Shown piece after piece: positions 122 through 19,231 of a stretch of 64,000 nt of DNA. The notes beneath the pieces are model-generated. The model made no database searches. It worked only from the letters and a program-made list of their open reading frames with translations, and was not told the DNA's origin. Location of the stretch: positions 12,688 to 76,687 of the forward strand of contig CAYMJQ010000002.1 in assembly GCA_964391455.1 (NCBI GenBank), written 5' to 3'. Numbering within the stretch: the first letter of the stretch is position 1; the number at the start of each line of letters is the position of its first letter. The translations under genes were made by a program, and so were the position numbers. The DNA is from an uncultured Candidatus Saccharibacteria bacterium (GTDB lineage Bacteria > Patescibacteriota > Minisyncoccia > Phycocordibacterales > DATDWN01).

Positions 122-259
122 ATGTCTTTCACATACAAACCAAAAAAAAGAAAAAGATCAAAAACACATGGTTTTTTGACTAGAAGTAAGTCAAAAACAG
201 GCTCAAAAACACTTTTAAGAAGAAGAAGGAAAGGAAGAGCTAAACTATCTACTGTTTAA
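122..259 (+). CDS. rpmH: 50S ribosomal protein L34
   Basis: My translation is [45 protein letters not shown] (45 aa), a canonical L34 sequence. The ORF is below the track's length cutoff. It sits directly upstream of rnpA, as in the conserved rpmH-rnpA-yidC arrangement. Confidence 0.85.
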
Positions 260-290
260 TTATAAGGCTCTATAAAGCCGTATAAAATAA

Positions 291-632
291 ATGTTAAAAA
301 AAAACAGAAGAATACAGAGGTCGTATTTTAAAAAAATAATAACAGAATCAAAGAGGTATCACTCAACCTCTTTTGTTTTATATTTATCAAAAATAAACAA
401 CAATACCACTCCTAGTAAATTTTCTTTTTCTATATCAAAAAAAATACTTAAATCTGCTGTAAAAAGAAACAAACAAAGAAGAAGGGCTTATTCTGTTATA
501 AAAAATGATTTGGAAAAAATAAAACCCGGATTTTTTTGTTTTTTTGTTTTTAAAAAAGGATTTCATGAAAAATTTTCAGATTTAGAAAAAGATATTAAGG
601 GGTTACTTTCTTCATCTGGTGTGTTAATATAG
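291..632 (+). CDS. rnpA: RNase P protein component
   Basis: A 113-aa basic protein in the position between rpmH and yidC, with a K/R-rich pattern typical of RnpA. Confidence 0.8.
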   Translation: MLKKNRRIQRSYFKKIITESKRYHSTSFVLYLSKINNNTTPSKFSFSISKKILKSAVKRNKQRRRAYSVIKNDLEKIKPGFFCFFVFKKGFHEKFSDLEKDIKGLLSSSGVLI

Positions 633-637
633 TCATC

Positions 638-1357
638 ATGATTACAATATTTAACACACTTGTATCCGAACCTCTTTATAGCACTCTTATATTTTTAATA
701 AACAAAATGCCCTTTTTTGATGTGGGTGTTGTAATAATTATATTTACAATACTAACAAAAATAGTTCTATTACCTCTTTCAATAAAAGCATCAAAATCTC
801 AATTAGAGATGAAAAATGCTGAAAAAGACATAAATCTTATAAAAGAAAAATATAAAGATAGCCCAGAACAAGGTTTGAAAATAATGGATTATTACAAAGA
901 AAAAGGAATAAATCCATTTATAGCTATTTTTATTGTTTTTATACAAATTCCTATTCTTATAGGTCTTTATAGAGTGTTTTTAAATCTTCCAGAAATAAAA
1001 ACAGATTGGTTGTATGGTTTTATAGAAATACCGTCATCCATAAATATGTTGTTTTTAGGTTTAATAGATATATCAGAAAAAAGTATTGTGCTAGCTGTTT
1101 TGGTTGGTGTAACAACTTATTTACAAACAAGCTTGGCTACTTCTAAGTCCGGAGAAGAAAAACAAACAAATAAAGAGGGGGATTTTGCAAAAGCAATGTC
1201 TTTTCAAATGAAGTATTTTTTACCACCACTTATTGCTGTTATTATTTACAACGTATCTTCAGCGGTAGCACTATATCTTTTGGTAAGTAACATATTCTCT
1301 ATTGTTCAAGAGTATTATATAAAACAAAAATATCACAAATCTATTGCAGTTGTTTAG
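638..1357 (+). CDS. yidC: membrane protein insertase YidC/Oxa1 (short form)
   Basis: A 239-aa polytopic membrane protein following rnpA, with a conserved YidC core (…INPFIAIFIVFIQIPILIGLYRVF…). Confidence 0.85.
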   Translation: MITIFNTLVSEPLYSTLIFLINKMPFFDVGVVIIIFTILTKIVLLPLSIKASKSQLEMKNAEKDINLIKEKYKDSPEQGLKIMDYYKEKGINPFIAIFIVFIQIPILIGLYRVFLNLPEIKTDWLYGFIEIPSSINMLFLGLIDISEKSIVLAVLVGVTTYLQTSLATSKSGEEKQTNKEGDFAKAMSFQMKYFLPPLIAVIIYNVSSAVALYLLVSNIFSIVQEYYIKQKYHKSIAVV

Positions 1358-1358
1358 T

Positions 1359-2597
1359 TTATTTGGTCAAATCTAAGCTCCACAAAGATCCATCTCTTTT
1401 ATTTATAAACACTAAAAACTGTTCGTTTGTTGAAAGTATAGGTTTTATTACATCTATCGCTTCACCCCCCTCTGATTCAAGGTTTGAAATTATTTGGGAA
1501 GTTAAGTTTAGAGTATCAAATACCCAAACATCATCACTATATTGAACCAAACCTTTATACCAATTTGTTAGACTTCCACTCCTTATTACATCCCTAGGTA
1601 CTGCACAGTATATTATGTTTGTGTCTTCGTTACTCCAAACACATTTTTCTGGAAATGTTTCTGGGGTTAAGAGACTGTTTGTTTTCTGGTTGTTATCGTA
1701 TAAAAACATATTAAATTCTGATCCTTGTCTTAAATATAAAATCTTTGAAGCATTATTATTTACCAAAGAAGAAAGACCTTTTATGTTGCCTAGTATTTTT
1801 CTAAAAGAAGCGTTTGTTACATCCAAAAAATACAAGAACCCGTCAGTTCCCTCTTCTGGTTTTGTGTTTAGTGCAACAATTCTAGAGTTAACGTATTGAG
1901 AATTAAATTCTTTTACAGGAGAGTTAATTACTAGTATTCTGTTTCCACCACTAAAATTTGATGTGTACCCAATAGAACCATTTTGACTTTTCTCTATATA
2001 AAATACACTATTGTTAAAAACAGATAAATCATAAATGTTTGCCGGGAATGCTATTCCAGATACAGTATTTTCAGTAGTGGTGCTTATCTCTCCAAGTGTT
2101 ATAGAAAAAGTATCTACAGTTTCATCATCATCTTTCAAGTATCTTGCCATTATGGAATTTCCATTATTTCCCCAGACAGCATCATAAATTCTTGGTATTG
2201 TTGTATTAGATATCCTGCCTTGTCTTGGAGAGAACAATTCTACCTCAAATATGTGTCCGGTAGCTTTTTCTATATAACGAACTATCGTCCCTGCTCTTAT
2301 ATCCAAAACTCCTGCCCCAGCTACAGGTTCAGAAGATATTTTTCTCAGTCTTTTTTGGAAATCCGTATTTTCCTCTTCGTCTATTATTGGATTTTCTTCT
2401 GGAAAATTATTATTATCTATTAATCCACCATCTTCACCCCCGAATGGGAAAAAGTTTTTAAATACATTTGTGATACCCCCATCTGTTTGGGGATTTCTTG
2501 TTCTTGTAAAATAATACCCTATAAGTACAGCAAGTATTATGCTTAGTACAACAAATATTATAATGTAGGTTTTTTTTGACATGATTTTTAAGTGCAA
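1359..2597 (-). CDS. hypothetical N-terminally anchored exported protein, last gene of the T4SS-like operon
   Basis: A 412-aa protein with a single N-terminal TM helix followed by a Ser/Thr/Asn-rich extracytoplasmic domain. Its start overlaps the stop of the upstream gene (2588/2597), indicating translational coupling. Confidence 0.5.
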   Translation of the reverse strand: MHLKIMSKKTYIIIFVVLSIILAVLIGYYFTRTRNPQTDGGITNVFKNFFPFGGEDGGLIDNNNFPEENPIIDEEENTDFQKRLRKISSEPVAGAGVLDIRAGTIVRYIEKATGHIFEVELFSPRQGRISNTTIPRIYDAVWGNNGNSIMARYLKDDDETVDTFSITLGEISTTTENTVSGIAFPANIYDLSVFNNSVFYIEKSQNGSIGYTSNFSGGNRILVINSPVKEFNSQYVNSRIVALNTKPEEGTDGFLYFLDVTNASFRKILGNIKGLSSLVNNNASKILYLRQGSEFNMFLYDNNQKTNSLLTPETFPEKCVWSNEDTNIIYCAVPRDVIRSGSLTNWYKGLVQYSDDVWVFDTLNLTSQIISNLESEGGEAIDVIKPILSTNEQFLVFINKRDGSLWSLDLTK

Positions 2598-3553
2598 GAA
2601 TTAGGTGCATTTACCTGATAATTATATACTGAAAAATGAGGTGCTGTTATTCTCGGTCTACCTGTTTGTGGGTCAGGTCCTATAACACGTATCGGTCCCC
2701 TATATGGAACAAAAGGTGTACCATCAGGGTTTCTTCTCGGTGTTCTACCATCAATATTTACTGTACTTATTAGATTCCGACACTCTTCAAATGTTGCTAC
2801 TTCAAATACCGGATACATATTACTTTGTCTAGCTTTTTCATAAAAATTATTTAAACCAGAAGGAGATCTGTCTATCGGGTTTCCGTCAATACAAGTCCCA
2901 TTACTATGACAACCAGATTGGTGTTGTACCGTTTGATTATAACCACCTTCCGTTATATACCAAGTACCTTCCCCCATTAATGCGTGGAAATTTTGAAGAT
3001 TTTGCATCATTCCTGCTGATACCCCAGAGTGAGATGCTCTAAGAGCGGGTAATCCTGATCCAGCAAAAGGAACACATCCACCAGGGCACCCAGTCGGTGG
3101 TATAACAGGGATTACAGGTGAATCTGTCGGCTCGACAGTAGGTCTTTCTATAAGAATATTAAAGCTTAGTATCTGGGGGTTTATTGTATTAAGAATAACA
3201 TATGAACCTATCACCAAAAGCAATCCTAGAACCGCATTTTCTATGTATTCTCTTCCTTGTTGTTTGCCACTTAAAGCGTCAGATGTTGCATATAGAACAC
3301 CACCTAATGTAATAAAAATAAAAGCCAAAGCAACAGCAATTCCAACAGTTAAATTAAACGCTGCTGGCAGGTAGGTACTAAGGTTTGTTCTTCCGTTTTC
3401 AGCACCTATACCTGGAAGAGGTGCTATAACCTCATAATCTCTTGGTCCTGTTGGCTCTGTTTGTGCAAAAGAAAAAGAAAACAAACTAAAAAACAAAAAA
3501 ACAGCTATAAATATTTTTATAAAAAAACTTTTTTTTGTTAAATTATTTTTCAT
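2588..3553 (-). CDS. VirB2/TrbC-like pilin-type membrane hairpin fused to a Cys-rich C-terminal domain
   Basis: Signal peptide, then two hydrophobic helices separated by a short loop (…LPAAFNLTVGIAVALAFIFITLGG…GLLLVIGSYVILNTI…), as in the T4SS pilin architecture. A ~180-aa Cys/Gly/Pro-rich soluble domain follows. Confidence 0.45.
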   Translation of the reverse strand: MKNNLTKKSFFIKIFIAVFLFFSLFSFSFAQTEPTGPRDYEVIAPLPGIGAENGRTNLSTYLPAAFNLTVGIAVALAFIFITLGGVLYATSDALSGKQQGREYIENAVLGLLLVIGSYVILNTINPQILSFNILIERPTVEPTDSPVIPVIPPTGCPGGCVPFAGSGLPALRASHSGVSAGMMQNLQNFHALMGEGTWYITEGGYNQTVQHQSGCHSNGTCIDGNPIDRSPSGLNNFYEKARQSNMYPVFEVATFEECRNLISTVNIDGRTPRRNPDGTPFVPYRGPIRVIGPDPQTGRPRITAPHFSVYNYQVNAPNSCT

Positions 3554-4593
3554 TATCTTTTAAATGTTAAATTTACACTCCTTGTTGAAGATTGGAGTAG
3601 TTTTTCTAAATTTTCTATAGACAAAGATATGTTAGATGTTCCAGAAACCCCTTCTTGTTTTCTAAATGTCTGATTTCTGTCACCCTGAACAGAAACAGGA
3701 GTTCCGTTTATTAACCATTTGTAGAGCATGGACTGATCGTTGTTTTGGTTATCAAAAAAATAAGGAACAGCGTGTATTGATATTTCGTTGGAATTTCCAA
3801 AATCTTCTTCCGCAACTAAGGCTTTTTGAAACTGTATACCATAGACTGGGTCTTTTTTATAAAACTGTATTGTTGGTTCATTTGGTATTAGTGTAATATT
3901 TGCAAAACCTAAACCAGGTCCAGTTTGAGGTGTAACCTCAACAGATATATTGATATTTCTTGATATTAAAGGACTTTCAAATGTATAAACATTTTTACCG
4001 AATCCAGAAGCACTTTCAATAAAGGATCCGTTTCTTGTCCACCGGTAAATCATATTTCTAGGATTCATTTCTACACCATTTTCATTTCTTATGTGCGGTA
4101 TGGCTATTATTGATATTGTGTTTTGGTGTGAAAAAAGAGCTTTTCCTTTATAAAATGGTGGAACATAACCACTACTTTGCCATATTAAGTCTACACTTGT
4201 TGGGACAAAAGAATAGTTTTTTTCTATAACAGAGCCAGAGCTTCCAGTCGCTGTTATATCAAGATTTGTTCTCTCCCCTTCTCTCCCCATTGTGAAACTG
4301 AAATTTTTCTCACCAATACCACTTTTTATTACTCTTCCATTAACTCTCCAAGTAAAATTTAAAGAATCAACATCTAAGGAAAAACTTTTTGCGGTAACAT
4401 AAACAAGTTCATTTGCTTTTGGTATTTCCGGAACAAATTCAATGATTAAGTTTGTGTCCGAATTACTAAAAACTTGAGAATTTACCGTACTATTTAATCC
4501 AAAAAATAATACAGTTATTAGAAATAAAATAGAAAAATATCTCATGTTTATAATAATATCATAGTCTAAATTTTGTGTTTTTTTGTTATTCAC
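3553..4593 (-). CDS. secreted hypothetical protein (T4SS-locus)
   Basis: A 346-aa protein with an N-terminal signal/TM segment and a mostly beta-rich Asn/Ser/Thr composition. It overlaps its neighbours by 1 nt. Confidence 0.5.
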   Translation of the reverse strand: MNNKKTQNLDYDIIINMRYFSILFLITVLFFGLNSTVNSQVFSNSDTNLIIEFVPEIPKANELVYVTAKSFSLDVDSLNFTWRVNGRVIKSGIGEKNFSFTMGREGERTNLDITATGSSGSVIEKNYSFVPTSVDLIWQSSGYVPPFYKGKALFSHQNTISIIAIPHIRNENGVEMNPRNMIYRWTRNGSFIESASGFGKNVYTFESPLISRNINISVEVTPQTGPGLGFANITLIPNEPTIQFYKKDPVYGIQFQKALVAEEDFGNSNEISIHAVPYFFDNQNNDQSMLYKWLINGTPVSVQGDRNQTFRKQEGVSGTSNISLSIENLEKLLQSSTRSVNLTFKR

Positions 4594-4595
4594 AA

Positions 4596-4973
4596 TTAAT
4601 TCTTGATATTTTTTGTTGCCACATTAATTCCCTTTGCTAACAAAGGGTTTTTTTCTGCTAAATCTTTTACTCTGGTTGTTGCTATTAAGAAAACTACAGC
4701 TACGGTCCATCCTGGAAGTATGTTTATATAAGGTATGGTTTCAATTAACCAACCTAAACCTAAGGAACCTAGTCTTTTTAAGGTTATCATATTTATTCCA
4801 TACATATGGAACCATAACCAAAATGTCATAAATACAAAAAAACTTACAATAGCTGCAAGTATATTACCCACAAGTGGTATCCAACCCGTTAAAGCTTGAA
4901 GGGTGTCAAAAAATAACGCTGTAAGAGTCATCAAAAAACCCGTGCCGAATTTTATTTGTGTTTCCTTTTTCAT
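4596..4973 (-). CDS. small polytopic membrane protein (T4SS-locus)
   Basis: A 125-aa protein with 3-4 predicted TM helices, immediately downstream of the VirB4 ATPase gene. Confidence 0.5.
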   Translation of the reverse strand: MKKETQIKFGTGFLMTLTALFFDTLQALTGWIPLVGNILAAIVSFFVFMTFWLWFHMYGINMITLKRLGSLGLGWLIETIPYINILPGWTVAVVFLIATTRVKDLAEKNPLLAKGINVATKNIKN

Positions 4974-6785
4974 TTAACTACTATTTTCTAAATCTGCTCT
5001 AGCTCTTTTTATAGACAAAACCTGAGATGGGTCAGAGGTTATAATCTGGTCTTCGGTATAAGAAGCTATTATTTTTATAGCTACATGTTTTAGCCCAGCA
5101 AAGAATATCCCTTCCCCAACATCTGATTCTAGAAGAAGATATTTTTCTTCATCAGTAAGACTAAATACTTGTTGTAATTTATCTATTGCAGTCGGAGATT
5201 GTTTTAGAAGTATTTGTATTGATGAGTTCGTTACTATAGGAACTCCATATGGAGATTTCATAAAATCATCAACATCTTGGGTTATGGTCGCAAGACCCAA
5301 ATAATATTTTCTTCCTCTTTTTGCCAAAGAAAGCAAAAAAGATGCAGTGTCTTCGGATTTCATCATCCACCAAGCTTCATCTATAACCAAGAGTCTTTTC
5401 TTTAGTTTTTTTCTTATCATGTTCCATATATAGTGCATGATTATGTACATAGCTATAGGTTTTAATTCATCTTCCATGTCCCGCAGAGAGAAAACTATAA
5501 ACTTTTTATTGATATCAATATTACTAGGTCTGTTTATAAAACCAGCCCATGTTCCTCTGGTGTATTTTGTAAGTCTTTGTGCTAGAGAACTACCACCTTC
5601 CATACCAGATAAAACCAATTCAAAATCAGAAAGTAGAGGAGGCTCTATGTTTTCAAAATTTGAATCAGCCGTAATATCTTTCAAGGCGTAAGTTTCTGTT
5701 ATAGCTCTATCTATAATCGCATCTTCTTCTGGTGTAAGCCCACCCATCATTAGTCTAAACAAACCAACCAAATTTATAATATTTGATCTCAAAACACTTG
5801 CAAAAGATTCATCTTCTCCTGGTGTTGGTATTTCAAAAGGGTTTATGTGGTGTTCAGAGTTTAGAGAAATGTTAAAATATCTACCACCAACAGCTTCTGA
5901 TAAATATTCATATTCCCTTTCTGGGTCAATAACCATCACATCTGTATCAAACATCAGTGTTCTTAGTATCTCTAGTTTTGTTGCATAAGATTTCCCAGCA
6001 CCAGATTTTGCAAAAGTTATAGAGTTGTAGTTTTCCAGTGTAAACCTATCAAACAAAACCAGAGAAGAGTTGTGTCTGTTTATACCATAAAGTATTCCAT
6101 TATCTGAGGTCAGGTCAAATGATATAAATGGAAACAGTGAAGATAGTGGAGAAGAGTTTAATTTGCTGTAAACCTCTAGTCCGTCTGTAGCTATTGGTAT
6201 TGCTGCTTTGAAAGCTTGTTCTTGTTGGAAGAGTGCTGGCTTTAGATATACAAGTTTTGCTTCTAGAATAGATTTTATTTCCGATTCTACTTTATCTAGC
6301 TCATCACTTGTATTTGCATACATTGTTATATAAAGACCCACATCAAACAACCTTTCTTGTGCTTGTTGCAAGTTGTCTCTTAGATTTTCTAGGTCTTGAT
6401 ATGCGGTATCCAGCATAGGGTCTCTTACGAGCCCTTTGGCTTCTCTTGCGTTTATCTGACTTTGTACTTCAGCCACTTTCTTTTGAAAAGTTCTTAGAAC
6501 GTTTGCTGTATCTATTGGTTTTACAAAAATAGAAACATCAAAAATTTTATCTAGATTTATAATTGGCGCAAACCAACTATCTGAAAGATATCTTGGATAA
6601 GATATGACAAAAAAGCTTCTTAAAACTTTCTCTCCGAGGTTAATTTCCTTAGGTGATACTTTTAAAGCACTTGGAGCTATAACATCTTTTAATTCAAGAC
6701 TGCTTGAATCATATATTTCTTGAGGCAAGATTGTTGAAATCTCCCTTTCCTCTTTTTTTGTTTTTAAAAAATCAAATATTCCCAT
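4974..6785 (-). CDS. virB4: VirB4/TrbE/CagE-family T4SS ATPase, central and C-terminal ATPase part
   Basis: Walker A GAGKSY (…FAKSGAGKSYATK…) and the VirB4-type Walker B LLVIDEAWWMM. The 603-aa protein lacks the family's N-terminal domain, which is encoded by the upstream ORF. Confidence 0.8.
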   Translation of the reverse strand: MGIFDFLKTKKEEREISTILPQEIYDSSSLELKDVIAPSALKVSPKEINLGEKVLRSFFVISYPRYLSDSWFAPIINLDKIFDVSIFVKPIDTANVLRTFQKKVAEVQSQINAREAKGLVRDPMLDTAYQDLENLRDNLQQAQERLFDVGLYITMYANTSDELDKVESEIKSILEAKLVYLKPALFQQEQAFKAAIPIATDGLEVYSKLNSSPLSSLFPFISFDLTSDNGILYGINRHNSSLVLFDRFTLENYNSITFAKSGAGKSYATKLEILRTLMFDTDVMVIDPEREYEYLSEAVGGRYFNISLNSEHHINPFEIPTPGEDESFASVLRSNIINLVGLFRLMMGGLTPEEDAIIDRAITETYALKDITADSNFENIEPPLLSDFELVLSGMEGGSSLAQRLTKYTRGTWAGFINRPSNIDINKKFIVFSLRDMEDELKPIAMYIIMHYIWNMIRKKLKKRLLVIDEAWWMMKSEDTASFLLSLAKRGRKYYLGLATITQDVDDFMKSPYGVPIVTNSSIQILLKQSPTAIDKLQQVFSLTDEEKYLLLESDVGEGIFFAGLKHVAIKIIASYTEDQIITSDPSQVLSIKRARADLENSS

Positions 6786-6789
6786 ATTT

Positions 6790-7425
6790 TTATTGTGATT
6801 TTATTGGTTTTTCTGTTTCACCAGGATTGAATATTTTATAAAATAATTCTATAACCTCTTCTGTTCCAAGTCTTATAACTCTGATACCGCAACGAGAAAG
6901 ACCTTGTTCTACGACAGAAACCCTCTGTTCTAATTGAGTCCTGTTTTCTTCAAAAGTAGCTTCTTTTCTCATTTTTTCTTCTTCACTAGATGTTCTTTTG
7001 AAAAAAGAAGGTGTGCCACCCTTTATGTTTATAAGTGCTGGGTCATAAGGAACAACTATAAAAAAACTTTTTGTCATTATATTTGTAGTTTCTGTAAATT
7101 TTCTTATGAATTCTATATATTCTTTAGTTTGGATTTTCATTAAATCATTTACTTGTTCTTTGTATCTTTCTTCAAGTAGGGCTATGTAGGGCCTTATATC
7201 CAGTCTTCTTGACTGTATTGATATTTGCACGGGGAAATCAAGTGAATTTAAAAAATCTTGGAACTGTAGAATTATGGCCCTTCTTTCATCTTCAGATTTG
7301 AGACTAAAGTTTAGAGAAGATGTTAGGATAACAGCCCTCATGGTATCATCTTTTAAAATAGCGATACCGTCTCTGACTTCTTTTATCGGGACAAACTCTT
7401 GTGTACTTTTAGCATTTACCGCCAT
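6790..7425 (-). CDS. VirB4 N-terminal domain, encoded as a separate upstream cistron
   Basis: The 211-aa protein begins …EFVPIKEVRDGIAILKDDTMRAVILTSSLNFSLKSEDERRAIILQFQDFLNSL…, resembling the N-termini of Gram-positive VirB4 homologues (TraE/Orf16/PrgJ type). Its TAA stop is followed by 4 nt and then the ATG of the ATPase ORF. Confidence 0.6.
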   Translation of the reverse strand: MAVNAKSTQEFVPIKEVRDGIAILKDDTMRAVILTSSLNFSLKSEDERRAIILQFQDFLNSLDFPVQISIQSRRLDIRPYIALLEERYKEQVNDLMKIQTKEYIEFIRKFTETTNIMTKSFFIVVPYDPALINIKGGTPSFFKRTSSEEEKMRKEATFEENRTQLEQRVSVVEQGLSRCGIRVIRLGTEEVIELFYKIFNPGETEKPIKSQ

Positions 7426-7455
7426 AAAATTTATTATAACACAGTAAAATATAAT

Positions 7456-7890
7456 TTATTTTGTTTTTACACCACTTTTACTTGTTAAAGGATTTAAATT
7501 TTCATTTACATCCAATGACCAAGACATTTCTTTTAATTTACTATCAGAAAGTTTAGGAACGTATACTTGTTTTTGGCTTTTTATAACATCTTCTGTTTTT
7601 TGTATTTTTTTCTGTTCTTTTTTCCAAATATATAAATTTTGTTTGGTGTAAAAAACAAAAGCAGCTTCAAGAAAATCTATGAAAGGTTTGTTGTTTATTT
7701 TGTAAAATGCTAAAGCCAGTGATAGTGGGATTATTATTGCAATAATTAAAATACTTAATAGAAAAGGTAAATAATTGTATACAACAAAACACATGCCAAC
7801 ACCACCAGCTAAATAAACAAATTGTTTTATGGTGAAAGGTCCAACGATTTTGTCTTCTACATCTATAAATTGTGGGACTTGATATCGCAT
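7456..7890 (-). CDS. PrgI/VirB3-like small membrane protein
   Basis: The N-terminal motif MRYQVPQFIDVEDKIVGPFTIKQFVYLAGG is followed by two TM helices. This pattern and the position upstream of VirB4 match PrgI-family proteins. Confidence 0.55.
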   Translation of the reverse strand: MRYQVPQFIDVEDKIVGPFTIKQFVYLAGGVGMCFVVYNYLPFLLSILIIAIIIPLSLALAFYKINNKPFIDFLEAAFVFYTKQNLYIWKKEQKKIQKTEDVIKSQKQVYVPKLSDSKLKEMSWSLDVNENLNPLTSKSGVKTK

Positions 7891-7970
7891 GATTATAAAT
7901 TTTACAGTTTTTAGTTTCTGGTGACTAGTGGATATACAAAAACTAAAAATTAATTACTATATAAAAACAA

Positions 7971-8588
7971 TTATTCCAGCGGCTCTCTGTAAGGATCCTT
8001 TTCATATTTTTTAATTGATTCTGCGGAATTTGTTGTGGTGTTTAATTTTTTTTCTAATATAGGGTTTTGAATATTTGAACTTGCTTGTTGTCCATATCTA
8101 GGGACACCGATTGTTTGTTTGTCTAAAACTTCATTTTGAAATACTGGTTTTGGTACAGGATTAACTCTTAAAGGCTCATTTTCTTCTATCATAGGGAGGT
8201 TTTCAGGTTTTAACTCTAGCTGGGTACTAGAAGACATCAATTTTTCTTTGTTTTCGGTATTTTCTGATGAATTTTTTTCTAACCCTTCTTTTTCTATTTG
8301 TTTTAAAGCATGGTCAAACACTCTATTTTCTAAATCTTCCAAGATTTGTTCAGCAAGAAGTTTGGATATATTTAAGTCAGAAATCATATTTGATAAAAAA
8401 TTATTGGGTTTTTCTAGTCCAACTAAAATAAGTACAACAGAATCAGTCAAGTTGTTTGTTTGTTCTTCATTAAGTCCGTATTTTTTACATATTTCTATAA
8501 CTTTTTCTTCCCAATCACTATTAAAAACAAAATCTTTAATAGGCTTAGGTAGATTTTCTATGTAGTTATTGTATGTATTTTTGTCCAT
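7971..8588 (-). CDS. acidic hypothetical protein (T4SS-locus)
   Basis: A 205-aa Glu/Asn-rich protein with no TM segment, carried in the operon. Confidence 0.45.
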   Translation of the reverse strand: MDKNTYNNYIENLPKPIKDFVFNSDWEEKVIEICKKYGLNEEQTNNLTDSVVLILVGLEKPNNFLSNMISDLNISKLLAEQILEDLENRVFDHALKQIEKEGLEKNSSENTENKEKLMSSSTQLELKPENLPMIEENEPLRVNPVPKPVFQNEVLDKQTIGVPRYGQQASSNIQNPILEKKLNTTTNSAESIKKYEKDPYREPLE

Positions 8589-8591
8589 ATT

Positions 8592-10877
8592 TTATGTTGT
8601 TACTTTTGGTTCAGTAGGTTCCTCTGGTTTTTCTTCTGTTTTTTGATTTTTTTCCTCTTCCTCTTTTTTCCTTTGTTCTTCCATATATTCCCTTGTTGCT
8701 TCTTCGGCTTTCTCTTTTTTGCTTTTTTCTGTGGCTAAACCTCTTATTTTTCTTGCAATAACTCTTCTATCAGATGCATTGTTAGTTTGTTCGGTTTGTG
8801 AAAGTGCATACCCTCCACCTACAAAAGCCCCAGGTATTCCACCAACCACCCCACCTAAAACTGTGCCCCCAGTAATTTTTGCTAAAACTGAACCATATCT
8901 ATACATTACTCCACCATTTTCTATTCTATTTGCATAATCATTAACTCTTTCTTTGTATCTTTCTTTCAATTTTGACTCATTGTCCTTTCCTAATGCTGTA
9001 ATTTCTTCCAATCTTCTTCGTTCATCTGATTTGAAGTTAGAACGATTATTTTTAGCTTCCTCATATATTTTCTTTCGGTCTTCAATTGCCTTGTTTAGAT
9101 TTTCAATCTCAGATTTTCTTCTTAAGTCATCATTTCTAATATTATCCATTTCTGTTTGGATTCTCACTTTTTCTTCCTGGCTTTCTGTCCAGTCTAATTG
9201 TTTTTGTAATTCCTTTAGTTTTTTTCTATTTTCTTCTATTTTTTGATCATTTTCATTTTTTGCAGATACAGCTTGGTTTAGAAGTTTTTCTTTTTCTGTT
9301 GCGTCTTTTCCTTCTTCAGTTTGTTGCCATATTCTATTTTCTTCATTTATAAAGCCTTCAGAATTTAATTTTTCTTCAGCTTCTTTTGTTGCTTTGTCTT
9401 TTTTCTTTGCTTCTTCGATAACATCATCATTTACCTTATAATACTGTTTTACTTTTTCAGCTTCATCTTTTGCTCTTTGTTCTGTAATTGCTCTATAGTT
9501 TGTTTTTTTGGTGTCTACTTTTCCAAAATCACTTCCAAAACCAGTTGCTTTGGCAACTGTGCCAAAACTATCTGTGGCCCTTGCATCAAAAGAACTTGTT
9601 GCAAGTCTATTTGCAGCAGAAAGTTTTAATCTTGCTCTTATATCACCTTTAGCTGCTCTGTCTTTGAGATCTTCATCATTTGCTACATTACCACCCCATC
9701 TTCCAATTGTGCTTCTACCCAACCTTCCTGCCCCTCCCATAAACACTCCACCAGCATAACCACTAAACTTACTAGTTGCTGTTGCGATGTGTGTGGATCC
9801 TTTTTTGGACATGTTTGCCGATACTATAAGTGAAGCAATGGACAAACCTATAATTATGGTAAATTTAAATAATAAATTTATAAAACCTTCATTATTTGCT
9901 GGGTTTTCACTTATTACACCACCCCAATTACCCCCCACAGTTATAAAACCTGGGCTCGTAAAAATAGTCATTGATACAAGCATCATTAGCATAAAAACAG
10001 GTGGAAATATAAGCTGGCTATTCAAAGCATTCCACCATTGAGAAGCATAAGGTTTCATGAAATCCAAAGCTAATCCCATATACGCAACTGGAGAAAGAAC
10101 AAGTAAAACAAGTATTGCTAAGAATCTAACAATAAACATTACTGATATGGCGAGGAAAACAAAACAAAGAATTAGAAATAGAAATATACCTAAAAGAGGA
10201 ATAAATATTAAATTAATCCTACCCCCCGCAGAACTTACCATTCCTTCAAATGCGTTGTTTGAATAAAAAGAAGTTATTCCAACAGCTCTCATAAAAGGCA
10301 CAGTTAAACCACCTCTTATTTCGACGTTTCCAGCTGTAACATTTCCTCTGTCTATTATGGCTTCATACAAACCAACAGTAACCACGTTTGAAGCATCTAT
10401 AAGCACTTTTGTAAAAAATAGGCTGAAGTTTATAAGTATAGAAGCCAGAACTATGCCTATAATAAATCTTTTTATATATTCTCTACTTCCCTGACCAATT
10501 ATGAGTTTTATTGCTTCAAAAAGTAGTATGAATATAAAAGCAATATTCATTAGGTCTTTTAGTATTTTCCATGCTGTGTTTATTCCTGTGAGACTTTGTA
10601 AATTCTCTTTAATATCCAAAATTGAGTATTCAATAACAAAGTCAAGTAATAGGCCAAATATCATGAGCAATAAAGCCATGATTGTTAGAATTCCATAAAA
10701 TATAGAAGAGATTATTGCAGTAAGACAGTTCTGTACATTTGGAAACGGAGTTTGGAAACCATACCAAGTTTGTGGGGCACAACCATTTCCTAGACTGAAA
10801 AAAGCATCAGCTGTAAAAGGTGTAAACACACCCACAAACAGAATTAGTATTAGTATGTAAGGAAAAAACCTTCTCAT
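8592..10877 (-). CDS. VirB6/TrbL-like polytopic membrane protein with long K/E-rich coiled-coil C-terminal extension
   Basis: A 761-aa protein with a signal peptide, at least six TM helices, Gly-rich segments, a ~250-aa Lys/Glu coiled-coil region and a C-terminal Gly-zipper helix. Confidence 0.5.
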   Translation of the reverse strand: MRRFFPYILILILFVGVFTPFTADAFFSLGNGCAPQTWYGFQTPFPNVQNCLTAIISSIFYGILTIMALLLMIFGLLLDFVIEYSILDIKENLQSLTGINTAWKILKDLMNIAFIFILLFEAIKLIIGQGSREYIKRFIIGIVLASILINFSLFFTKVLIDASNVVTVGLYEAIIDRGNVTAGNVEIRGGLTVPFMRAVGITSFYSNNAFEGMVSSAGGRINLIFIPLLGIFLFLILCFVFLAISVMFIVRFLAILVLLVLSPVAYMGLALDFMKPYASQWWNALNSQLIFPPVFMLMMLVSMTIFTSPGFITVGGNWGGVISENPANNEGFINLLFKFTIIIGLSIASLIVSANMSKKGSTHIATATSKFSGYAGGVFMGGAGRLGRSTIGRWGGNVANDEDLKDRAAKGDIRARLKLSAANRLATSSFDARATDSFGTVAKATGFGSDFGKVDTKKTNYRAITEQRAKDEAEKVKQYYKVNDDVIEEAKKKDKATKEAEEKLNSEGFINEENRIWQQTEEGKDATEKEKLLNQAVSAKNENDQKIEENRKKLKELQKQLDWTESQEEKVRIQTEMDNIRNDDLRRKSEIENLNKAIEDRKKIYEEAKNNRSNFKSDERRRLEEITALGKDNESKLKERYKERVNDYANRIENGGVMYRYGSVLAKITGGTVLGGVVGGIPGAFVGGGYALSQTEQTNNASDRRVIARKIRGLATEKSKKEKAEEATREYMEEQRKKEEEEKNQKTEEKPEEPTEPKVTT

Positions 10878-10882
10878 TATGA

Positions 10883-12574
10883 TTATATTGGTCTAAATAT
10901 TGCCCAAACAGAACCATCAGCAGATACGATTCCAGAACAAGTTGGCTGTGTTCCAAATACCGCACAAGCTCCACCCCAACCAACAAAAGTGTGACCTATG
11001 CCTGGTGTTGCTGATATAGACTGGTGTGATCCTCTAGGATAGACTTTTGATATTGTTGTTGAAGCCATAGTAACTGAATTCAACTCATCTACTCCGTCGC
11101 TCAATGATCCTACACCTGAAACAGTAAATGTAACTGTGTATGTTCCAACACCTGGAAGAGGTGTTGGTGGTGCTGGGTTTTCGTGTCCGGCTGGGTTTCT
11201 GTTACAAGCACACTCAACCAACCAACCCCAACCACCTTCTGCTATAGAGTATTCACCGTCCGGACCTTCATTTCCAACAGCACCAATCATTACATCTACA
11301 ATCATTCCATTACCAAAATTAAACTTATCTAATCTTATTGGGTGTTCCATTAATTCTCCTCCAAATCTACTACTAATTATCGGAGCTGCTTGTCGCATAC
11401 CGTAATTAGAAGCGGGATAACCATTTAATACAGATAAAACAGCACTACTACTTACTGTTGTACAATCTACGTTTGGATCTGGTGTGTATGCTGGACAATG
11501 ACCACCACTTCCTCCACCAGCTCCTAGTGGCCAAGGAGGAAGACCTCCAACTGTTCCTGGGGTGCTTCTGCAGTTTGCTTGTCCACCATCTCCACCCCCA
11601 CCCCCACCATCTGGGTCACCACCATCTCCACCACTTCCACCTGTTGCTGTACAGTTTATGGATGGAGCCGTTGCTGTGATCCGGTAATTTGTTATTGGTT
11701 GTTGTTCATCTCTTAAACTATTAGTAAAAACTCTTCCGGAAGCATCTCTTTCACTTGAAGTAAATAAACTTCCAGCGCCCCCAACTATTTTTTCTACCAA
11801 TTGTGTAAGCAAGGCAGTAACTATTTCATTGAATTCATCAGCTGCATTTAATCTTTCCCAACTTGAACCAAGACTTCTTGATAATTGATCGTTTATAAGG
11901 ACCCCAGGGGTGGTTGTTATTTCTTCTTGAGTACATATTGTTTGTTGAGATATTGGATCAATCACCTCTGCGCCTCTAGGACATCTTTTTACGTTTAGAA
12001 AACCACCACTTAAATCTAATTCTCTTTGTCTTGTGGCTTGAGCTGCACTTATTCTCATAGATAAAGTGTTTTGGGCTTCGAGGTATGCTCCATAAGGGTT
12101 GTTTTGAGAGTTTTGAGTTAATTCAAACCATCCCTGCCAACCACCCTGAGAGAAATCTCTGGTAAAAGCCTCATAATTATTTCTAAGTATATCTAGTGTA
12201 CAGGTGTAATTCGTGGTGTCTGGGTTTATATAATTTTTAACCAAAGCCAGTCTTACTTGGGCGTTAAACGGTGCACATAATTGATTTACTCCTGCTTGAG
12301 ATAAGAAAGCGGAAGCAGTTTCGTCTCCTATATCTAAGAAAAATTGTCTAGGATTCTGTACATATAGAGGGTTTCCTTTAAAACCAGAGTTGATCCAGTT
12401 TACTGTTGTGGCGGTAAGTCTTTTTAATGCTATGGCTGAAACTTGGTAAGCAACTCCATCAAGGGCGAATTCTTTTAAATTTTGAGCAATATCTACATAC
12501 TGTGCGTTGGTTTTTACTGGAGAAGATAATGATAATAGTGATGCCATTATCATTATTAATAAAGTTTTTTTCAT
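10883..12574 (-). CDS. secreted Gly/Cys-rich protein (T4SS-locus)
   Basis: A 563-aa protein with a signal peptide. It has a poly-Gly/Asp tract (GGSGGDGGDPDGGGGGGDGG) and many Cys in the C-terminal half. Confidence 0.5.
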   Translation of the reverse strand: MKKTLLIMIMASLLSLSSPVKTNAQYVDIAQNLKEFALDGVAYQVSAIALKRLTATTVNWINSGFKGNPLYVQNPRQFFLDIGDETASAFLSQAGVNQLCAPFNAQVRLALVKNYINPDTTNYTCTLDILRNNYEAFTRDFSQGGWQGWFELTQNSQNNPYGAYLEAQNTLSMRISAAQATRQRELDLSGGFLNVKRCPRGAEVIDPISQQTICTQEEITTTPGVLINDQLSRSLGSSWERLNAADEFNEIVTALLTQLVEKIVGGAGSLFTSSERDASGRVFTNSLRDEQQPITNYRITATAPSINCTATGGSGGDGGDPDGGGGGGDGGQANCRSTPGTVGGLPPWPLGAGGGSGGHCPAYTPDPNVDCTTVSSSAVLSVLNGYPASNYGMRQAAPIISSRFGGELMEHPIRLDKFNFGNGMIVDVMIGAVGNEGPDGEYSIAEGGWGWLVECACNRNPAGHENPAPPTPLPGVGTYTVTFTVSGVGSLSDGVDELNSVTMASTTISKVYPRGSHQSISATPGIGHTFVGWGGACAVFGTQPTCSGIVSADGSVWAIFRPI

Positions 12575-18055: not shown

Positions 18056-19231
18056 TTGAAAAATAATACGGCTCAACAAAGCCATATTTATTTACAGAGT
18101 TTCAGAATTTGTATTAAATTTAAGACTATTTTGGGGTCTAAACATGATCCAGATTCTATTTCGGGTCTTAAAAGCATCGTTGCCATATTTGTAAATAAAG
18201 TAGGCAAGATGGGATCTAGAGAGAATTTGGTGACAATATTTTACACTCTTGTTATAAATCCAGCTATTTTGTTGGGGGTGGTTATACCTTTGCAAGCATC
18301 AGCTTGTGGGATTTTTGATTTGAGGTCTTGTTTTTCTGGGGGCAATAGGGTTCAGGCAGAGGAAATTGTGTCTATGAATTCTCAAAATATAGCTTTGTTA
18401 CAAGCAACCCTTTCTCCCCTTCAAGGTATTTCTACTACAACAGATGAGATTGCCATAGTTAATGATGTTTTTATTTCTCCAGAAAATCAAAGATTTGCTG
18501 AAGATATAAAGACTATAGAAGATGAACAAATCAGTGTTTATGAAGTTAGAAGTGGAGATACGTTACCTTTAATTGCAAAAATGTTTGGAGTTTCTGTTAA
18601 TACTATAAAATGGGGTAACGATTTGAAAAGTGATAAAATAATACCCGGACAAGTGTTGGTTATATTGCCAATTTCTGGAGTTCAACACGTTGTTAAATCA
18701 GGAGACACTCTTCAAGGTATAGCGAAAAAACATAAAGGTGATTTAGATGAGATATTGCAGTACAACAATTTAACGCTTTCATCAAAACTTTCAATAGGTG
18801 ATGTTATTATAGTTCCAAATGGAGAGATTGTGTCTCATACCCCCACAACAAGAACTTCTGTAACAATAAGTCAAAGCACTCCTGCTTATAGTGGTTACTA
18901 TATAAGACCTATTGTTGGGGGAATAAAAACACAAGGAATTCATGGGAAAAATGCTATAGACCTAGCTTCTTACTATGGAGCTAATATATTAGCTTCTGCT
19001 TCTGGAGAAGTTATTATTGCTAGAACTGGATGGAATGGTGGTTATGGTACTTATGTTGTTATAAAACACGGAAACGGTACACAAACACTTTATGCTCATA
19101 TGAGTTCGTTAAATGTTGGTGTTGGAAGTAAAGTTTCTCAAGGTCAAGTTATAGGTAAAATGGGTAGTACAGGGAGAAGTACTGGTACACATTTACACTT
19201 TGAGATTCGTGGTGCCCGAAATCCTTTCTAA
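18056..19231 (+). CDS. LysM-LysM-M23 family peptidoglycan metalloendopeptidase
   Basis: Two LysM repeats (…SGDTLPLIAKMFGVSVNTIKWGN…, …SGDTLQGIAKKHKGDLDEILQYNN…) and a C-terminal M23 domain (HLHFEIR). The track start is a TTG. A more plausible start is the ATG at 18209 (MGSRENLV…), which carries a signal-like segment. Confidence 0.75.
   Translation: MKNNTAQQSHIYLQSFRICIKFKTILGSKHDPDSISGLKSIVAIFVNKVGKMGSRENLVTIFYTLVINPAILLGVVIPLQASACGIFDLRSCFSGGNRVQAEEIVSMNSQNIALLQATLSPLQGISTTTDEIAIVNDVFISPENQRFAEDIKTIEDEQISVYEVRSGDTLPLIAKMFGVSVNTIKWGNDLKSDKIIPGQVLVILPISGVQHVVKSGDTLQGIAKKHKGDLDEILQYNNLTLSSKLSIGDVIIVPNGEIVSHTPTTRTSVTISQSTPAYSGYYIRPIVGGIKTQGIHGKNAIDLASYYGANILASASGEVIIARTGWNGGYGTYVVIKHGNGTQTLYAHMSSLNVGVGSKVSQGQVIGKMGSTGRSTGTHLHFEIRGARNPF

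What the first reader, a model, noticed from the sequence alone, without database searches (positions are those of the whole stretch)
2588..3553. T4SS pilin-like membrane hairpin fused to a ~180-aa Cys/Gly/Pro-rich extracellular domain
VirB2/TrbC pilins are normally ~100 aa, with a signal peptide and two helices. Here the same architecture is followed by a large domain with many Cys, reading …GCPGGCVPFAGSG…HSGVSAGMMQ…GCHSNGTCIDGNPIDR…. It could be a cell-wall hydrolase or an adhesin module displayed on the pilin. I do not recognise this fusion.
Basis: inference. Interest (0 to 1): 0.5.

Follow-up and report, generated by a model that had tools for sequence, protein, structure and literature searches.

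The report
Secretion-system pilin fused to wall peptidase
A tiny symbiotic (Parcubacteria-type) bacterium encodes its only type IV secretion pilin-like protein as a fusion to a Hedgehog/D-Ala-D-Ala-peptidase-fold domain, which probably builds the missing cell-wall-cutting function of this secretion machine directly into the pilin.

Summary
The ORF at 2588..3553 (minus strand, 321 aa) has a signal peptide, a two-helix VirB2-like hairpin (Pfam T4SS_pilin), a roughly 30-residue proline-rich tether and a roughly 165-aa Cys/Gly/Pro-rich globular domain.

The fusion is a large family of at least 1,000 clusters at 50% identity, and nearly all listed members carry both modules. It sits in a fixed slot of a conserved T4SS operon next to the replication origin. 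In other Patescibacteria that slot holds a plain pilin, or a pilin fused to a different wall-hydrolase domain (NlpC/P60 or 3D).

The best reading is a pilin-anchored peptidoglycan peptidase acting as a built-in VirB1 analogue. Catalysis, the target wall (own or host) and pilus polymerisation are all unproven.

I found no description of this fusion in the literature I could search. I rate it a new variant of a known kind, interest about 0.55.

The parts
2588..3553 (-). Whole gene: 321-aa pilin-peptidase fusion, stop codon at 2588-2590
   Evidence: ORF list and codon check. The ATG overlaps the upstream stop codon (TAATG). The next gene's ATG lies 5 nt after this stop.
3464..3553 (-). Signal peptide, residues 1-30, with predicted signal-peptidase I cleavage after SFA(30)|Q
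   Evidence: Hydrophobic segment 7-32. A30 is at least 90% conserved and followed by Q in the alignment. The cleavage site is inferred, not tested.
3383..3463 (-). Conserved mature N-terminal stretch, residues 31-57 (DYxVLAPLPGIG motif)
   Evidence: Y40, L43, L46 and P47 are at least 90% conserved. Function unknown.
3182..3382 (-). VirB2-like helical hairpin, residues 58-124: two membrane helices joined by a short basic loop (SGKQQGREY)
   Evidence: PF18895 matches residues 57-122 at 23.5 bits. AF2 helices 58-90 and 94-124. Hydropathy. Relatives also give weak hits to TrbC/VirB2 (E = 3.3e-4) and DUF4134.
3089..3181 (-). Proline/threonine-rich flexible tether, residues 125-155
   Evidence: pLDDT 47-54. 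Sequence PQILSFNILIERPTVEPTDSPVIPVIPPTG. Its length varies among homologues, and some carry roughly 200-aa inserts here.
2591..3088 (-). LAS-fold (Hedgehog / DD-peptidase, M15-like) domain, residues 156-321
2885..2923 (-). H211 ... C215-H216-x2-G219-x-C221-x-D223, containing the LAS H-x6-D motif. It aligns with Shh GHH...SLHYEGRAVD.
   Evidence: Alignments. H211 and D223 are invariant in 180/180; H216 in 160/180 (Q in 19); C215 and C221 co-vary. Codons verified.
2801..2803 (-). E251, the candidate general base. It aligns with the catalytic Glu of Shh (YYES).
   Evidence: Alignments. Invariant in 180/180.
2630..2638 (-). H306-F-S308 on the last beta-strand, the position of the LAS H-x-H motif. 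The first His is kept; the second is Ser.
   Evidence: H306 is 180/180. Position 308 is Ser in 154 and His in 26 of 180. The sister group has HWH.
3074..3088 (-). C156-x3-C160 pair at the start of the domain (disulfide or metal site, undetermined)
   Evidence: Invariant in alignment A1. Present in 163-164 of 180 members.
1359..12574 (-). The T4SS operon that contains the gene. Order: large surface protein (10883..12574), VirB6/TrbL-like (8592..10877), 205-aa protein, PrgI/VirB3 (7456..7890), TrsD/TraC-like (6790..7425), VirB4 (4974..6785), 125-aa membrane protein, 346-aa Ig-like protein (3553..4593), this gene, 412-aa protein (1359..2597).
   Evidence: Family scans. Same order in loci L001-L003, L006-L014, L019 and others. 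The homologue of the 761-aa protein hits TrbL_3 in L007.

Best explanation
The gene encodes a Sec-exported membrane protein with two modules.

Module 1 is a VirB2-like T4SS pilin hairpin: two membrane helices with a short basic cytoplasmic loop, and both ends outside the cell. It is the only VirB2-like gene in a conserved, origin-proximal T4SS operon.

Module 2 hangs outside the membrane on a roughly 30-residue proline-rich tether. It is a divergent LAS-fold domain, the fold shared by Hedgehog N-domains and the M15 peptidoglycan peptidases.

The most likely mechanism is as follows. The hairpin places the protein in or at the T4SS assembly site. The tethered domain then cleaves, or at least engages, peptide stems or cross-links of peptidoglycan. 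That opens the wall locally so the channel or pilus can pass. This is the role VirB1, PrgK or TcpG play elsewhere, here built into the pilin subunit. If the subunit polymerises, the same domain would coat the filament and could also act on the host cell's wall.

Shown: the architecture, the fold, conservation of five active-site-position residues, the fixed operon slot, and replacement of the domain by other wall-hydrolase domains in that slot.

Inferred: membrane topology, signal-peptide cleavage, metal binding, peptidoglycan as substrate, and any polymerisation.
For: Architecture.

Sequence: the family profile hits Shh at E = 9e-6 and nothing unrelated below E = 1. hhalign gives E = 1.2e-5 and aligns TE, H211, H216-x6-D223 and E251 with Shh TEGW, GHH, H-x6-D and the catalytic Glu.

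Conservation: E202, H211, D223, E251 and H306 are invariant in 180/180 family members.

Obligate fusion: 122 of 134 new top representatives carry both modules, and the other 12 are mostly fragments.

Context: 5 of the 6 homologues looked up by exact protein, and many loci from the genome scan, keep the order PrgI - TrsD - VirB4 - small membrane protein - 346-aa homologue - [this gene] - 412-aa homologue.

Slot replacement: the same slot holds the window-type LAS domain, a canonical HWH-type LAS domain, a 3D domain (L009), NlpC/P60 (L019) or a plain 128-161-aa pilin (L012, L027).

No other candidate: no other protein in the operon matches a hydrolase family.

Literature: most Patescibacteria genomes that have VirB2-like genes lack a detectable VirB1 (PMC12102498).
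Against: The canonical third zinc ligand, the second His of H-x-H, is Ser308 in this protein and in 154 of 180 relatives. In 19 relatives the first ligand, H216, is also replaced by Gln. The classical LAS zinc site is therefore not intact, and the domain could be non-catalytic or rewired.

I could not inspect model coordinates, so active-site geometry is untested.

No Pfam model reaches significance on the C-domain alone.

The PF18895 match is below the gathering score for this protein. No solved VirB2 or TraA pilin was recovered by sequence or fold search.

One distant homologue (P0093) lies beside a recombinase/primase island rather than a T4SS.

There is no experimental evidence for any member of the family.
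Confidence: 0.6

Rival explanations
1. Pseudo-peptidase anchor. The LAS-fold domain has lost catalysis and instead binds peptidoglycan stem peptides, fixing the pilin or T4SS to the wall, or the filament to the host wall. It would be an adhesin or anchor rather than an enzyme.
For: S308 replaces the zinc-binding His of H-x-H in 154 of 180 members. H216 is Gln in 19 members. Drosophila Hedgehog is a precedent for a LAS fold without the zinc motif (PMC6027127).
Against: The putative general base E251, together with H211, D223, H306 and E202, is invariant in 180/180. A pure binding module would not be expected to keep all of these, and Drosophila Hh lost the Glu and Asp as well. The domains that replace it in the same slot are catalytic types, and the NlpC/P60 copy keeps its Cys/His motifs.
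Confidence: 0.2
2. Host-directed weapon. The subunit polymerises into a pilus whose surface is covered with peptidase domains, or the domain is cut off at the tether. Its target is the host bacterium's wall at the epibiont contact site, not the producer's own wall.
For: Patescibacterial T4SS and pilin genes are essential for epibiotic growth in Southlakia (PMC10633639; PMC12857230). This is the only VirB2-like gene in the operon, so any pilus would have to be built from it. The tether is long, variable and flexible.
Against: There is no evidence that PF18895 proteins polymerise. A roughly 19-kDa domain on every subunit may hinder packing (inference). No cleavage site was identified. This rival overlaps the main explanation in chemistry and differs only in target and assembly state.
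Confidence: 0.15
3. A generic membrane-anchored autolysin for growth or division that merely shares a two-helix anchor. Under this reading the pilin label is a naming artefact and the T4SS linkage is incidental.
For: The PF18895 score is below cut-off. No solved pilin was matched. P0093 lies outside a T4SS. A PBP gene lies a few kb away in related loci.
Against: The slot between the 346-aa and 412-aa genes downstream of virB4 is conserved across lineages from 25% to 60% identity, with overlapping or nearly abutting stop and start codons. Plain short pilins occupy the same slot elsewhere. Relatives also hit TrbC/VirB2 and DUF4134.
Confidence: 0.05
4. Gene-fusion artefact from a sequencing or assembly error, or a signalling ligand in the manner of animal Hedgehog.
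For: None beyond the fold resemblance to Hedgehog.
Against: The two-module architecture recurs in 122 of 134 independent representatives. No Patched-like or Hog/intein partner was seen in the scanned operon proteins.
Confidence: 0.02

Closest known systems
Patescibacterial VirB2-like pilins (Pfam PF18895 T4SS_pilin), for example the essential pilin array of Southlakia epibionticum and the VirB2-like genes catalogued by Quinonero-Coronel et al. 2025
   Same: Signal peptide plus two-helix hairpin. Matches the same HMM family. Located next to virB4, prgI and trsD in a chromosomal, origin-proximal, relaxase-less T4SS cluster.
   Different: The Saccharibacterial examples are described as arrays of several divergent pilin genes. 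Here there is a single gene, and it carries a roughly 165-aa enzyme-fold domain. The papers I could read do not mention this fusion.
Hedgehog / DD-peptidase (LAS) zinc peptidases: Shh N-domain, bacterial Hh-like proteins, S. albus Zn D-Ala-D-Ala carboxypeptidase (M15A), VanX/VanY/VanXY/LdcB (M15B/D), phage L-Ala-D-Glu peptidases (M15C), MepA (M74)
   Different: 13-15% identity, and no Pfam M15 or HH_signal hit for this protein. H-x-H is H-F-S. The Ca-binding acidic residues of Shh (GWDEDG) read GGYNQT. There are 54 residues between the Glu and the last-strand His, against 5 in Shh. Two extra conserved Cys pairs are present.
T4SS-associated wall hydrolases: VirB1 (lytic transglycosylase), PrgK, TraG of pIP501, TcpG, CD419 (SLT, CHAP or NlpC/P60 domains, membrane-anchored in monoderms)
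   Same: Encoded inside the T4SS operon. Membrane-anchored, with the enzyme domain outside. Expected job: opening the wall for the machine (established knowledge; PMC12102498).
   Different: The catalytic fold is unrelated (a LAS peptidase, not a glycosidase or cysteine peptidase). The anchor is the pilin module itself rather than a single transmembrane helix.
Sister fusions in other Patescibacteria: pilin + HWH-type LAS domain (P0029, P0039, P0067 group), pilin + NlpC/P60 (L019), pilin + 3D domain (L009), pilin + VanX-type M15 (L018)
   Same: Same hairpin family. For the HWH group, L009 and L019, the same operon slot.
   Different: The hydrolase domains differ or are more canonical. The HWH group keeps the full H-x6-D ... 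E ... H-W-H motif that the window protein has partly lost.

Membership tests
VirB2/TrbC-type T4SS pilin (Pfam PF18895 T4SS_pilin) | Scores above the family HMM's gathering threshold | tested here: inconclusive
   The window protein scores 23.5 bits against a cut-off of 26.6, E = 6e-5. Of 42 full-length homologues, 41 match at E <= 0.1, best 3.6e-10. Two also hit TrbC/VirB2 (3.3e-4) and three hit DUF4134.
VirB2/TrbC-type T4SS pilin (Pfam PF18895 T4SS_pilin) | Signal peptide followed by two hydrophobic helices forming a hairpin | tested here: met
   Hydropathy segments 7-32, 60-94 and 103-126. AF2 helices 58-90 and 94-124.
VirB2/TrbC-type T4SS pilin (Pfam PF18895 T4SS_pilin) | Encoded with virB4 and other T4SS genes | tested here: met
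   VirB4, TrsD, PrgI and a VirB6/TrbL-like gene lie in the same operon. The order is conserved in related loci.
VirB2/TrbC-type T4SS pilin (Pfam PF18895 T4SS_pilin) | Small protein (about 100 aa mature or less) with no other domain | tested here: not met
   321 aa, with a 165-aa folded C-terminal domain.
VirB2/TrbC-type T4SS pilin (Pfam PF18895 T4SS_pilin) | Polymerises into an extracellular pilus | not testable with these tools
   Needs microscopy or biochemistry. No multimer modelling was available.
LAS / Hedgehog-DD-peptidase (MEROPS M15-like) zinc peptidases | Characteristic fold | tested here: met
LAS / Hedgehog-DD-peptidase (MEROPS M15-like) zinc peptidases | H-x(3-6)-D zinc-ligand motif | tested here: met
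   H216-x6-D223 aligns with Shh H-YEGRAV-D. D223 is 180/180; H216 is 160/180.
LAS / Hedgehog-DD-peptidase (MEROPS M15-like) zinc peptidases | H-x-H motif, whose second His is the third zinc ligand | tested here: not met
   The window protein has H306-F-S308. Only 26 of 180 relatives have H-F-H. The sister group has H-W-H. Whether H306 or H211 takes over as a ligand could not be tested.
LAS / Hedgehog-DD-peptidase (MEROPS M15-like) zinc peptidases | Catalytic Glu (Shh E177 equivalent) | tested here: met
   E251 aligns with the Glu of Shh YYES and is invariant in 180/180.
LAS / Hedgehog-DD-peptidase (MEROPS M15-like) zinc peptidases | Binds zinc and cleaves a peptide bond of peptidoglycan | not testable with these tools
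   Needs metal analysis and muropeptide assays.
Bacterial Hedgehog-like (bacHh) subgroup, sensu Roelink 2018 | More than about 50% identity to ShhN, with all Zn- and Ca-coordinating residues identical | tested here: not met
   13-15% identity. The Ca-site stretch GWDEDG reads GGYNQT. H-x-H is incomplete. The definition is from PMC6027127.
VirB1-type T4SS wall hydrolases (SLT, CHAP, NlpC/P60) | Lytic transglycosylase or cysteine-peptidase catalytic domain | tested here: not met
   No such Pfam or NCBIfam hit, and no such structure among the fold hits.

The most novel reading that the evidence does not exclude
In Parcubacteria the T4SS filament subunit is itself an enzyme. The VirB2-like hairpins polymerise, and each subunit displays a wall peptidase on a flexible tether. 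The result would be a 'drilling' pilus that digests its way through the producer's wall and then the host's wall. The enzyme head would be swapped between LAS, NlpC/P60 and 3D types according to the host's wall chemistry. The invariant H211/D223/H306/E251 set would then define a rewired LAS active site that works without the canonical H-x-H ligand.
Probability: 0.15. Interest if true: 0.8.

Novelty: new variant of a known kind. Interest (0 to 1): 0.55.

Why it matters
Patescibacterial T4SSs are essential for the epibiotic lifestyle where they have been tested. They are unusual among monoderm systems in having VirB2-like pilins, and most appear to lack a VirB1-type wall hydrolase, a gap the 2025 survey noted explicitly.

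A pilin that carries its own peptidoglycan-peptidase-fold domain offers a concrete, testable answer to how these machines cross the wall. The domain sits in a fixed operon slot and is exchangeable with NlpC/P60 or 3D domains.

The finding has three further consequences. Many genes currently counted or annotated as 'pilin' in Parcubacteria are bifunctional. There is a family of more than 1,000 clusters of Hedgehog-fold domains in ultra-small bacteria. And these domains show an unusual, strictly conserved variant of the LAS active site that deserves biochemical study.

Tried and rejected
Searches and tools that gave nothing:
- Single-sequence phmmer against PDB gave nothing meaningful.
- Pfam and NCBIfam on the C-domain alone, or on the whole protein, gave no hydrolase family.
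- tblastn against plasmid and phage collections found no match, so there is no sign of a plasmid or phage origin.
- The AFDB Foldseek library was unavailable.
- The search for related loci rejected the alignment as too divergent. The single-protein scan mostly recovered hairpin-only matches and did not find the source genome.
- Exact look-up of the window protein's contig failed.
- HMM scans of all window ORFs found no second pilin or LAS copy.
- The flanking 346-aa and 412-aa proteins gave no PDB sequence match.
- Promoter-like sites were fewer than the shuffle mean (47 vs 57.7). Terminator-like sites were about twice the shuffle mean (12 vs 6.2), but none falls on the minus strand within or flanking the gene, so the scan tells us nothing about transcription units.

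Limits of the alignments:
- hhalign between the window-type and HWH-type C-domains was only weakly significant (E = 0.009), although it aligned the right motifs.
- Neither HMMER nor hhalign extends the Shh alignment across the long insert to the last strand. I could not decide by alignment whether H306 equals the first or the second His of H-x-H. The H-F-H relatives and the HWH sister group argue for the first.

Readings considered and rejected:
- Low-complexity region: entropy is 4.07 bits and pLDDT is 91.
- CHAP, lysozyme or M23 folds.
- Gene-fusion artefact.
Full report
**1. The observation**

The ORF at 2588..3553 lies on the minus strand, starts with ATG and encodes 321 aa.

Kyte-Doolittle windows show three hydrophobic segments:
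- residues 7-32;
- residues 60-94;
- residues 103-126.

The first segment ends in SFA|Q. A30 is conserved in at least 90% of 42 homologues, as expected for a signal-peptidase I site. This is an inference.

AlphaFold2, run with a 42-sequence alignment, gives mean pLDDT 84. It models two long helices (58-90 and 94-124) joined by a three-residue turn. A disordered stretch follows (about 125-155, pLDDT 47-67), then a confidently folded domain with pLDDT 88-98.

Residues 140-321 are enriched in three residues relative to the window's long ORFs:

| Residue | Residues 140-321 | Window's long ORFs |
|---|---|---|
| Cys | 3.3% | 0.6% |
| Gly | 11.0% | 6.6% |
| Pro | 11.5% | 4.0% |

Entropy is 4.07 bits, so this is not low complexity.

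**2. The N-terminal module**

- Pfam T4SS_pilin (PF18895) matches residues 57-122 at 23.5 bits, slightly under its 26.6-bit gathering score.
- Of the 42 aligned homologues, 41 match this family (best E = 3.6e-10). Two also hit TrbC/VirB2 (3.3e-4) and three hit DUF4134.
- No solved VirB2 or TraA pilin was recovered by sequence or fold search.

The pilin assignment therefore rests on the family HMM, the signal-peptide-plus-hairpin architecture and the genomic context.

The loop between the helices (SGKQQGREY) is basic. By the positive-inside rule it should face the cytoplasm, which would place both ends, and therefore the C-terminal domain, outside the cell. This is an inference.

**3. The C-terminal module**

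No Pfam model detects it in the window protein, and single-sequence phmmer against PDB finds nothing. Profiles do find it:
- The full-length family profile hits Sonic and Indian hedgehog N-domains at E = 2e-4.
- A profile of the C-domain alone reaches E = 9e-6. All 24 matches below E = 1 are Hedgehog proteins.
- hhalign against ShhN gives E = 1.2e-5 and 81% probability.

These alignments pair the family's motifs with Shh as follows:

| This family | Shh |
|---|---|
| W-x-V-T-E202 | RVTEGW |
| H211 | second His of GHH |
| C-H216-x-x-G-T-C-V-D223 | SLHYEGRAVD (the H-x6-D zinc motif) |
| Y-E251-V | YYES (the catalytic Glu) |

Structure agrees with sequence:
- The domain-only model has pLDDT 91 and pTM 0.86.
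- Beyond these, only unrelated folds appear.
- Foldseek's top 38 PDB hits are all Hedgehog N-domains.

The domain is therefore a divergent member of the LAS (lysostaphin / D-Ala-D-Ala peptidase / Sonic hedgehog) structural superfamily. Its bacterial members are peptidoglycan peptidases (established knowledge; PMC6027127).

**4. The state of the active site**

I examined 180 family members drawn from the searches.

| Position | Finding |
|---|---|
| E202, H211, D223, E251, H306 | invariant, 180/180 |
| H216 | His in 160, Gln in 19 |
| C215 and C221 | co-vary: both Cys in 164; Gly/other + Ser in the other 16, nearly all Q216 variants |
| C156 and C160 | present in 163-164 |
| Position 308 | Ser in 154, His in 26 |

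Position 308 matters most. The H-F-H relatives (for example P0011...TGSHFHIQ) have the same flanking residues as the H-F-S relatives. The sister group ends in ...G-x-H-W-H-V. The simplest reading is that H306 corresponds to the first His of the LAS H-x-H motif. Ser308 would then occupy the position of the second His, which is the canonical third zinc ligand.

The alternative register, H306-F-S-V against Shh H183-C-S-V, cannot be excluded. The alignment tools do not bridge the 54-residue insert between E251 and H306 (typical spacing in the family is 29), and I could not read model coordinates.

Nineteen members lack both H216 and a His at 308, yet keep the five invariant residues. The family may therefore use a rewired site (H211/D223/H306 plus E251). 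This is an inference and is flagged as the main weakness of the enzymatic reading.

**5. How general the fusion is**

Ninety-six homologues were found. About half align along the full length of the window protein. The rest align only over the hairpin.

The C-terminal parts of that second group form a second LAS family carrying the full canonical motif: I-T-G-G-T-E-G-G-H ... H-x-x-G-x-x-V-D ... E ... H-W-H. Four of its members weakly hit Peptidase_M15_4 and two weakly hit HH_signal.

A search of 1.84 billion representatives with the window-type C-domain profile returns 1,056 proteins at E <= 1e-3 and 761 at E <= 1e-10. Of the 134 new proteins among the best 150, 122 also contain the hairpin. 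The other 12 are mostly truncated fragments.

This C-domain family is therefore essentially always fused to the pilin module. Source names, where given, are Parcubacteria or Zambryskibacteria, and one source calls the protein 'pilin'.

**6. Genomic context**

In the window the gene sits inside a minus-strand operon. In the direction of transcription it reads:
1. 563-aa surface protein
2. 761-aa VirB6/TrbL-like protein
3. 205-aa protein
4. PrgI/VirB3
5. TrsD/TraC-like protein
6. VirB4
7. 125-aa membrane protein
8. 346-aa Ig-like protein
9. this gene
10. 412-aa protein

The operon is followed by yidC, rnpA and rpmH on the opposite strand.

The gene's ATG overlaps the upstream stop codon (TAATG), and the next gene's ATG lies 5 nt after its stop. 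This points to co-translation as an operon.

The same order, ending at yidC-rnpA-(rpmH)-dnaA, is found around homologues of 40%, 34% and 48% identity. It is also found around two HWH-type proteins. One distant homologue (P0093, 25% identity) instead lies beside a serine recombinase and a primase-polymerase.

This matches the published picture of a chromosomal, origin-proximal, relaxase-less T4SS in Patescibacteria (PMC12102498).

**7. The same slot in other lineages**

A scan of species-representative genomes returned 41 loci. About half retain PrgI-TrsD-VirB4, and most of those also keep the 346-aa homologue, the PF18895 gene and the 412-aa homologue in that order.

The hairpin proteins in these loci are frequently 300-700 aa long. 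In the syntenic slot I found:

| Content of the slot | Loci |
|---|---|
| Window-type LAS fusion | L001, L002, L008 |
| HWH-type LAS fusion | L006, L007, L010, L011 |
| Pilin + 3D domain (PF06725, E = 4e-8) | L009 |
| Pilin + NlpC/P60 (29.2 bits, above cut-off; the DCSGF... and ...GHV... motifs are visible) | L019 |
| Plain pilins of 161 and 128 aa | L012, L027 |

Elsewhere, outside this slot, a pilin + VanX-type M15 (L018) and an SGNH-like domain + pilin (L020) occur.

Unrelated peptidoglycan-hydrolase folds replacing one another on the same pilin in the same slot is, to my mind, the strongest indirect argument that the C-terminal module acts on the wall.

No other protein in the window's operon matches a hydrolase family. 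The nearest other wall enzyme is a LysM-M23 protein about 5.5 kb beyond the operon, on the other strand.

**8. Mechanism**

I commit to the following, at about 0.6 overall:
1. The protein is exported by Sec and its signal peptide is removed.
2. The hairpin inserts with both ends outside and associates with the T4SS.
3. The roughly 30-residue Pro-rich tether lets the LAS domain reach into the wall.
4. There it cleaves or engages peptide stems, making room for the channel or filament. This is a VirB1-like function built into the only VirB2-like subunit.

My rough sub-probabilities:

| Claim | Probability |
|---|---|
| LAS fold | 0.95 |
| Acts on peptidoglycan, as enzyme or binder | 0.7 |
| Catalytically active | 0.55 |
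| Polymerises with the domain displayed | 0.3 |

Rivals:
- a non-catalytic wall anchor (0.2);
- a host-directed, pilus-displayed or released weapon (0.15), which overlaps the main reading in chemistry;
- a generic autolysin unrelated to the T4SS (0.05);
- an assembly artefact or a signalling ligand (0.02).

**9. Comparison with what is known, and novelty**

All the parts are known kinds:
- VirB2-like pilins of Patescibacteria (PMC10633639, PMC12102498, PMC12857230);
- LAS / Hedgehog-DD-peptidases, including bacterial proteins in which the domain is the C-terminal periplasmic part of a membrane protein (PMC6027127);
- T4SS-associated wall hydrolases.

What I did not find described is the combination. 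My full-text searches for pilin, VirB2, Patescibacteria, M15, hedgehog and PF18895 turned up no description of it.

The 2025 survey counts PF18895 genes as VirB2-like pilins. It concludes that pilus biogenesis apparently does not need VirB1, because most genomes lack one. The fusion suggests that the hydrolase was overlooked because it is part of the pilin.

By strict membership tests the window protein is:
- a borderline HMM member of PF18895;
- a fold-level and profile-level member of the LAS superfamily that fails the H-x-H criterion;
- not a bacHh in Roelink's sense;
- not a VirB1, CHAP, lysozyme or M23 protein.

I rate it a new variant of a known kind.

**10. Verdict**

It is moderately interesting to T4SS and Patescibacteria specialists, because it offers a testable answer to the missing-VirB1 question and shows an unusual LAS active-site variant. 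It is not categorically new. Interest 0.55.

Noticed in passing
window 4974..7425 (-); L001, L002, L006-L008: VirB4 is encoded as two adjacent genes: a 211-aa TrsD/TraC-like N-terminal part at 6790..7425 and a 603-aa ATPase at 4974..6785. The same split (about 212 aa plus 601-607 aa) is present in every related locus, so it is a conserved arrangement and not a frameshift.
   Followed up: partly
window 122..1357 (+): rpmH (45 aa, 122..259), rnpA (291..632) and yidC (638..1357) directly abut the end of the T4SS operon. In related loci dnaA and dnaN follow. The secretion cluster therefore sits next to the replication origin, as the 2025 survey reported for many Patescibacteria.
   Followed up: partly
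proteins P0026-P0028, P0030, P0034, P0036, P0038, P0043, P0063, P0078 (locus L002 10001-10915): This sub-family has H216 replaced by Gln and C215/C221 replaced by Gly/Ser. It also has an extra Cys-rich insert (GCxGxC...YTN...) ahead of the domain. Both canonical zinc-ligand His positions are missing, yet E202, H211, D223, E251 and H306 stay invariant and the operon slot is unchanged.
   Followed up: partly
L019 7206-8762; L009 5813-6802 and 6853-7800; L018 7605-9224; L020 7179-9272: Other Patescibacterial PF18895 hairpin proteins are fused to NlpC/P60 (plus Amidase_5), a 3D domain, a VanX-type Peptidase_M15, or an N-terminal SGNH/GDSL-like domain. L009 has two such genes in tandem. Many others of 400-1,200 aa carry extensions with no family match.
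   Followed up: partly
L004 8017-10879: The most distant full-length homologue (P0093, 25% identity, intact motifs) is not in a T4SS cluster. It lies just downstream of a serine recombinase and a Prim-Pol/AAA_25 primase, which suggests carriage on an integrated mobile element.
   Followed up: no
window 18056..19231 (+): A separate wall hydrolase (two LysM repeats plus Peptidase_M23, 391 aa) lies about 5.5 kb beyond the T4SS operon, on the other strand, after ksgA and a UvrD-type helicase.
   Followed up: no
window 10883..12574 (-): The first gene of the operon encodes a 563-aa secreted protein with a poly-Gly/Asp tract (GGSGGDGGDPDGGGGGGDGG), many Cys and a weak InlB B-repeat-like C-terminus. 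Its counterparts in related loci are larger (up to 978 aa), and some hit Bact_surface_Ig-like. It may be the adhesin of the system.
   Followed up: no
window 2580..2597 (-): The downstream 412-aa ORF is listed from a TTG at 2597, overlapping the pilin gene by 10 nt. An ATG at 2582 (MSKKTYIIIF...) lies 5 nt after the pilin stop and is the more likely start.
   Followed up: partly
window 2588..3553: The half of the gene encoding the C-terminal domain has 40.8% G+C, against 32.6% for the hairpin half and 33.2% for the whole window. This may simply reflect the Gly/Pro/Cys-rich composition, or it may point to a separate origin for the domain.
   Followed up: no
proteins P0087, P0090, P0128, P0209, P0058: Architectural variants of the family exist. 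Some have a roughly 200-aa insert between hairpin and LAS domain (P0087, P0090). P0209 matches the LAS-domain profile twice (a weak second stretch at 194-317, E = 4.5e-5), suggesting two copies. Some have long N-terminal extensions. P0058 appears fused to a glycosyltransferase, but it lies on a 1.9-kb contig and may be a gene-calling artefact.
   Followed up: no
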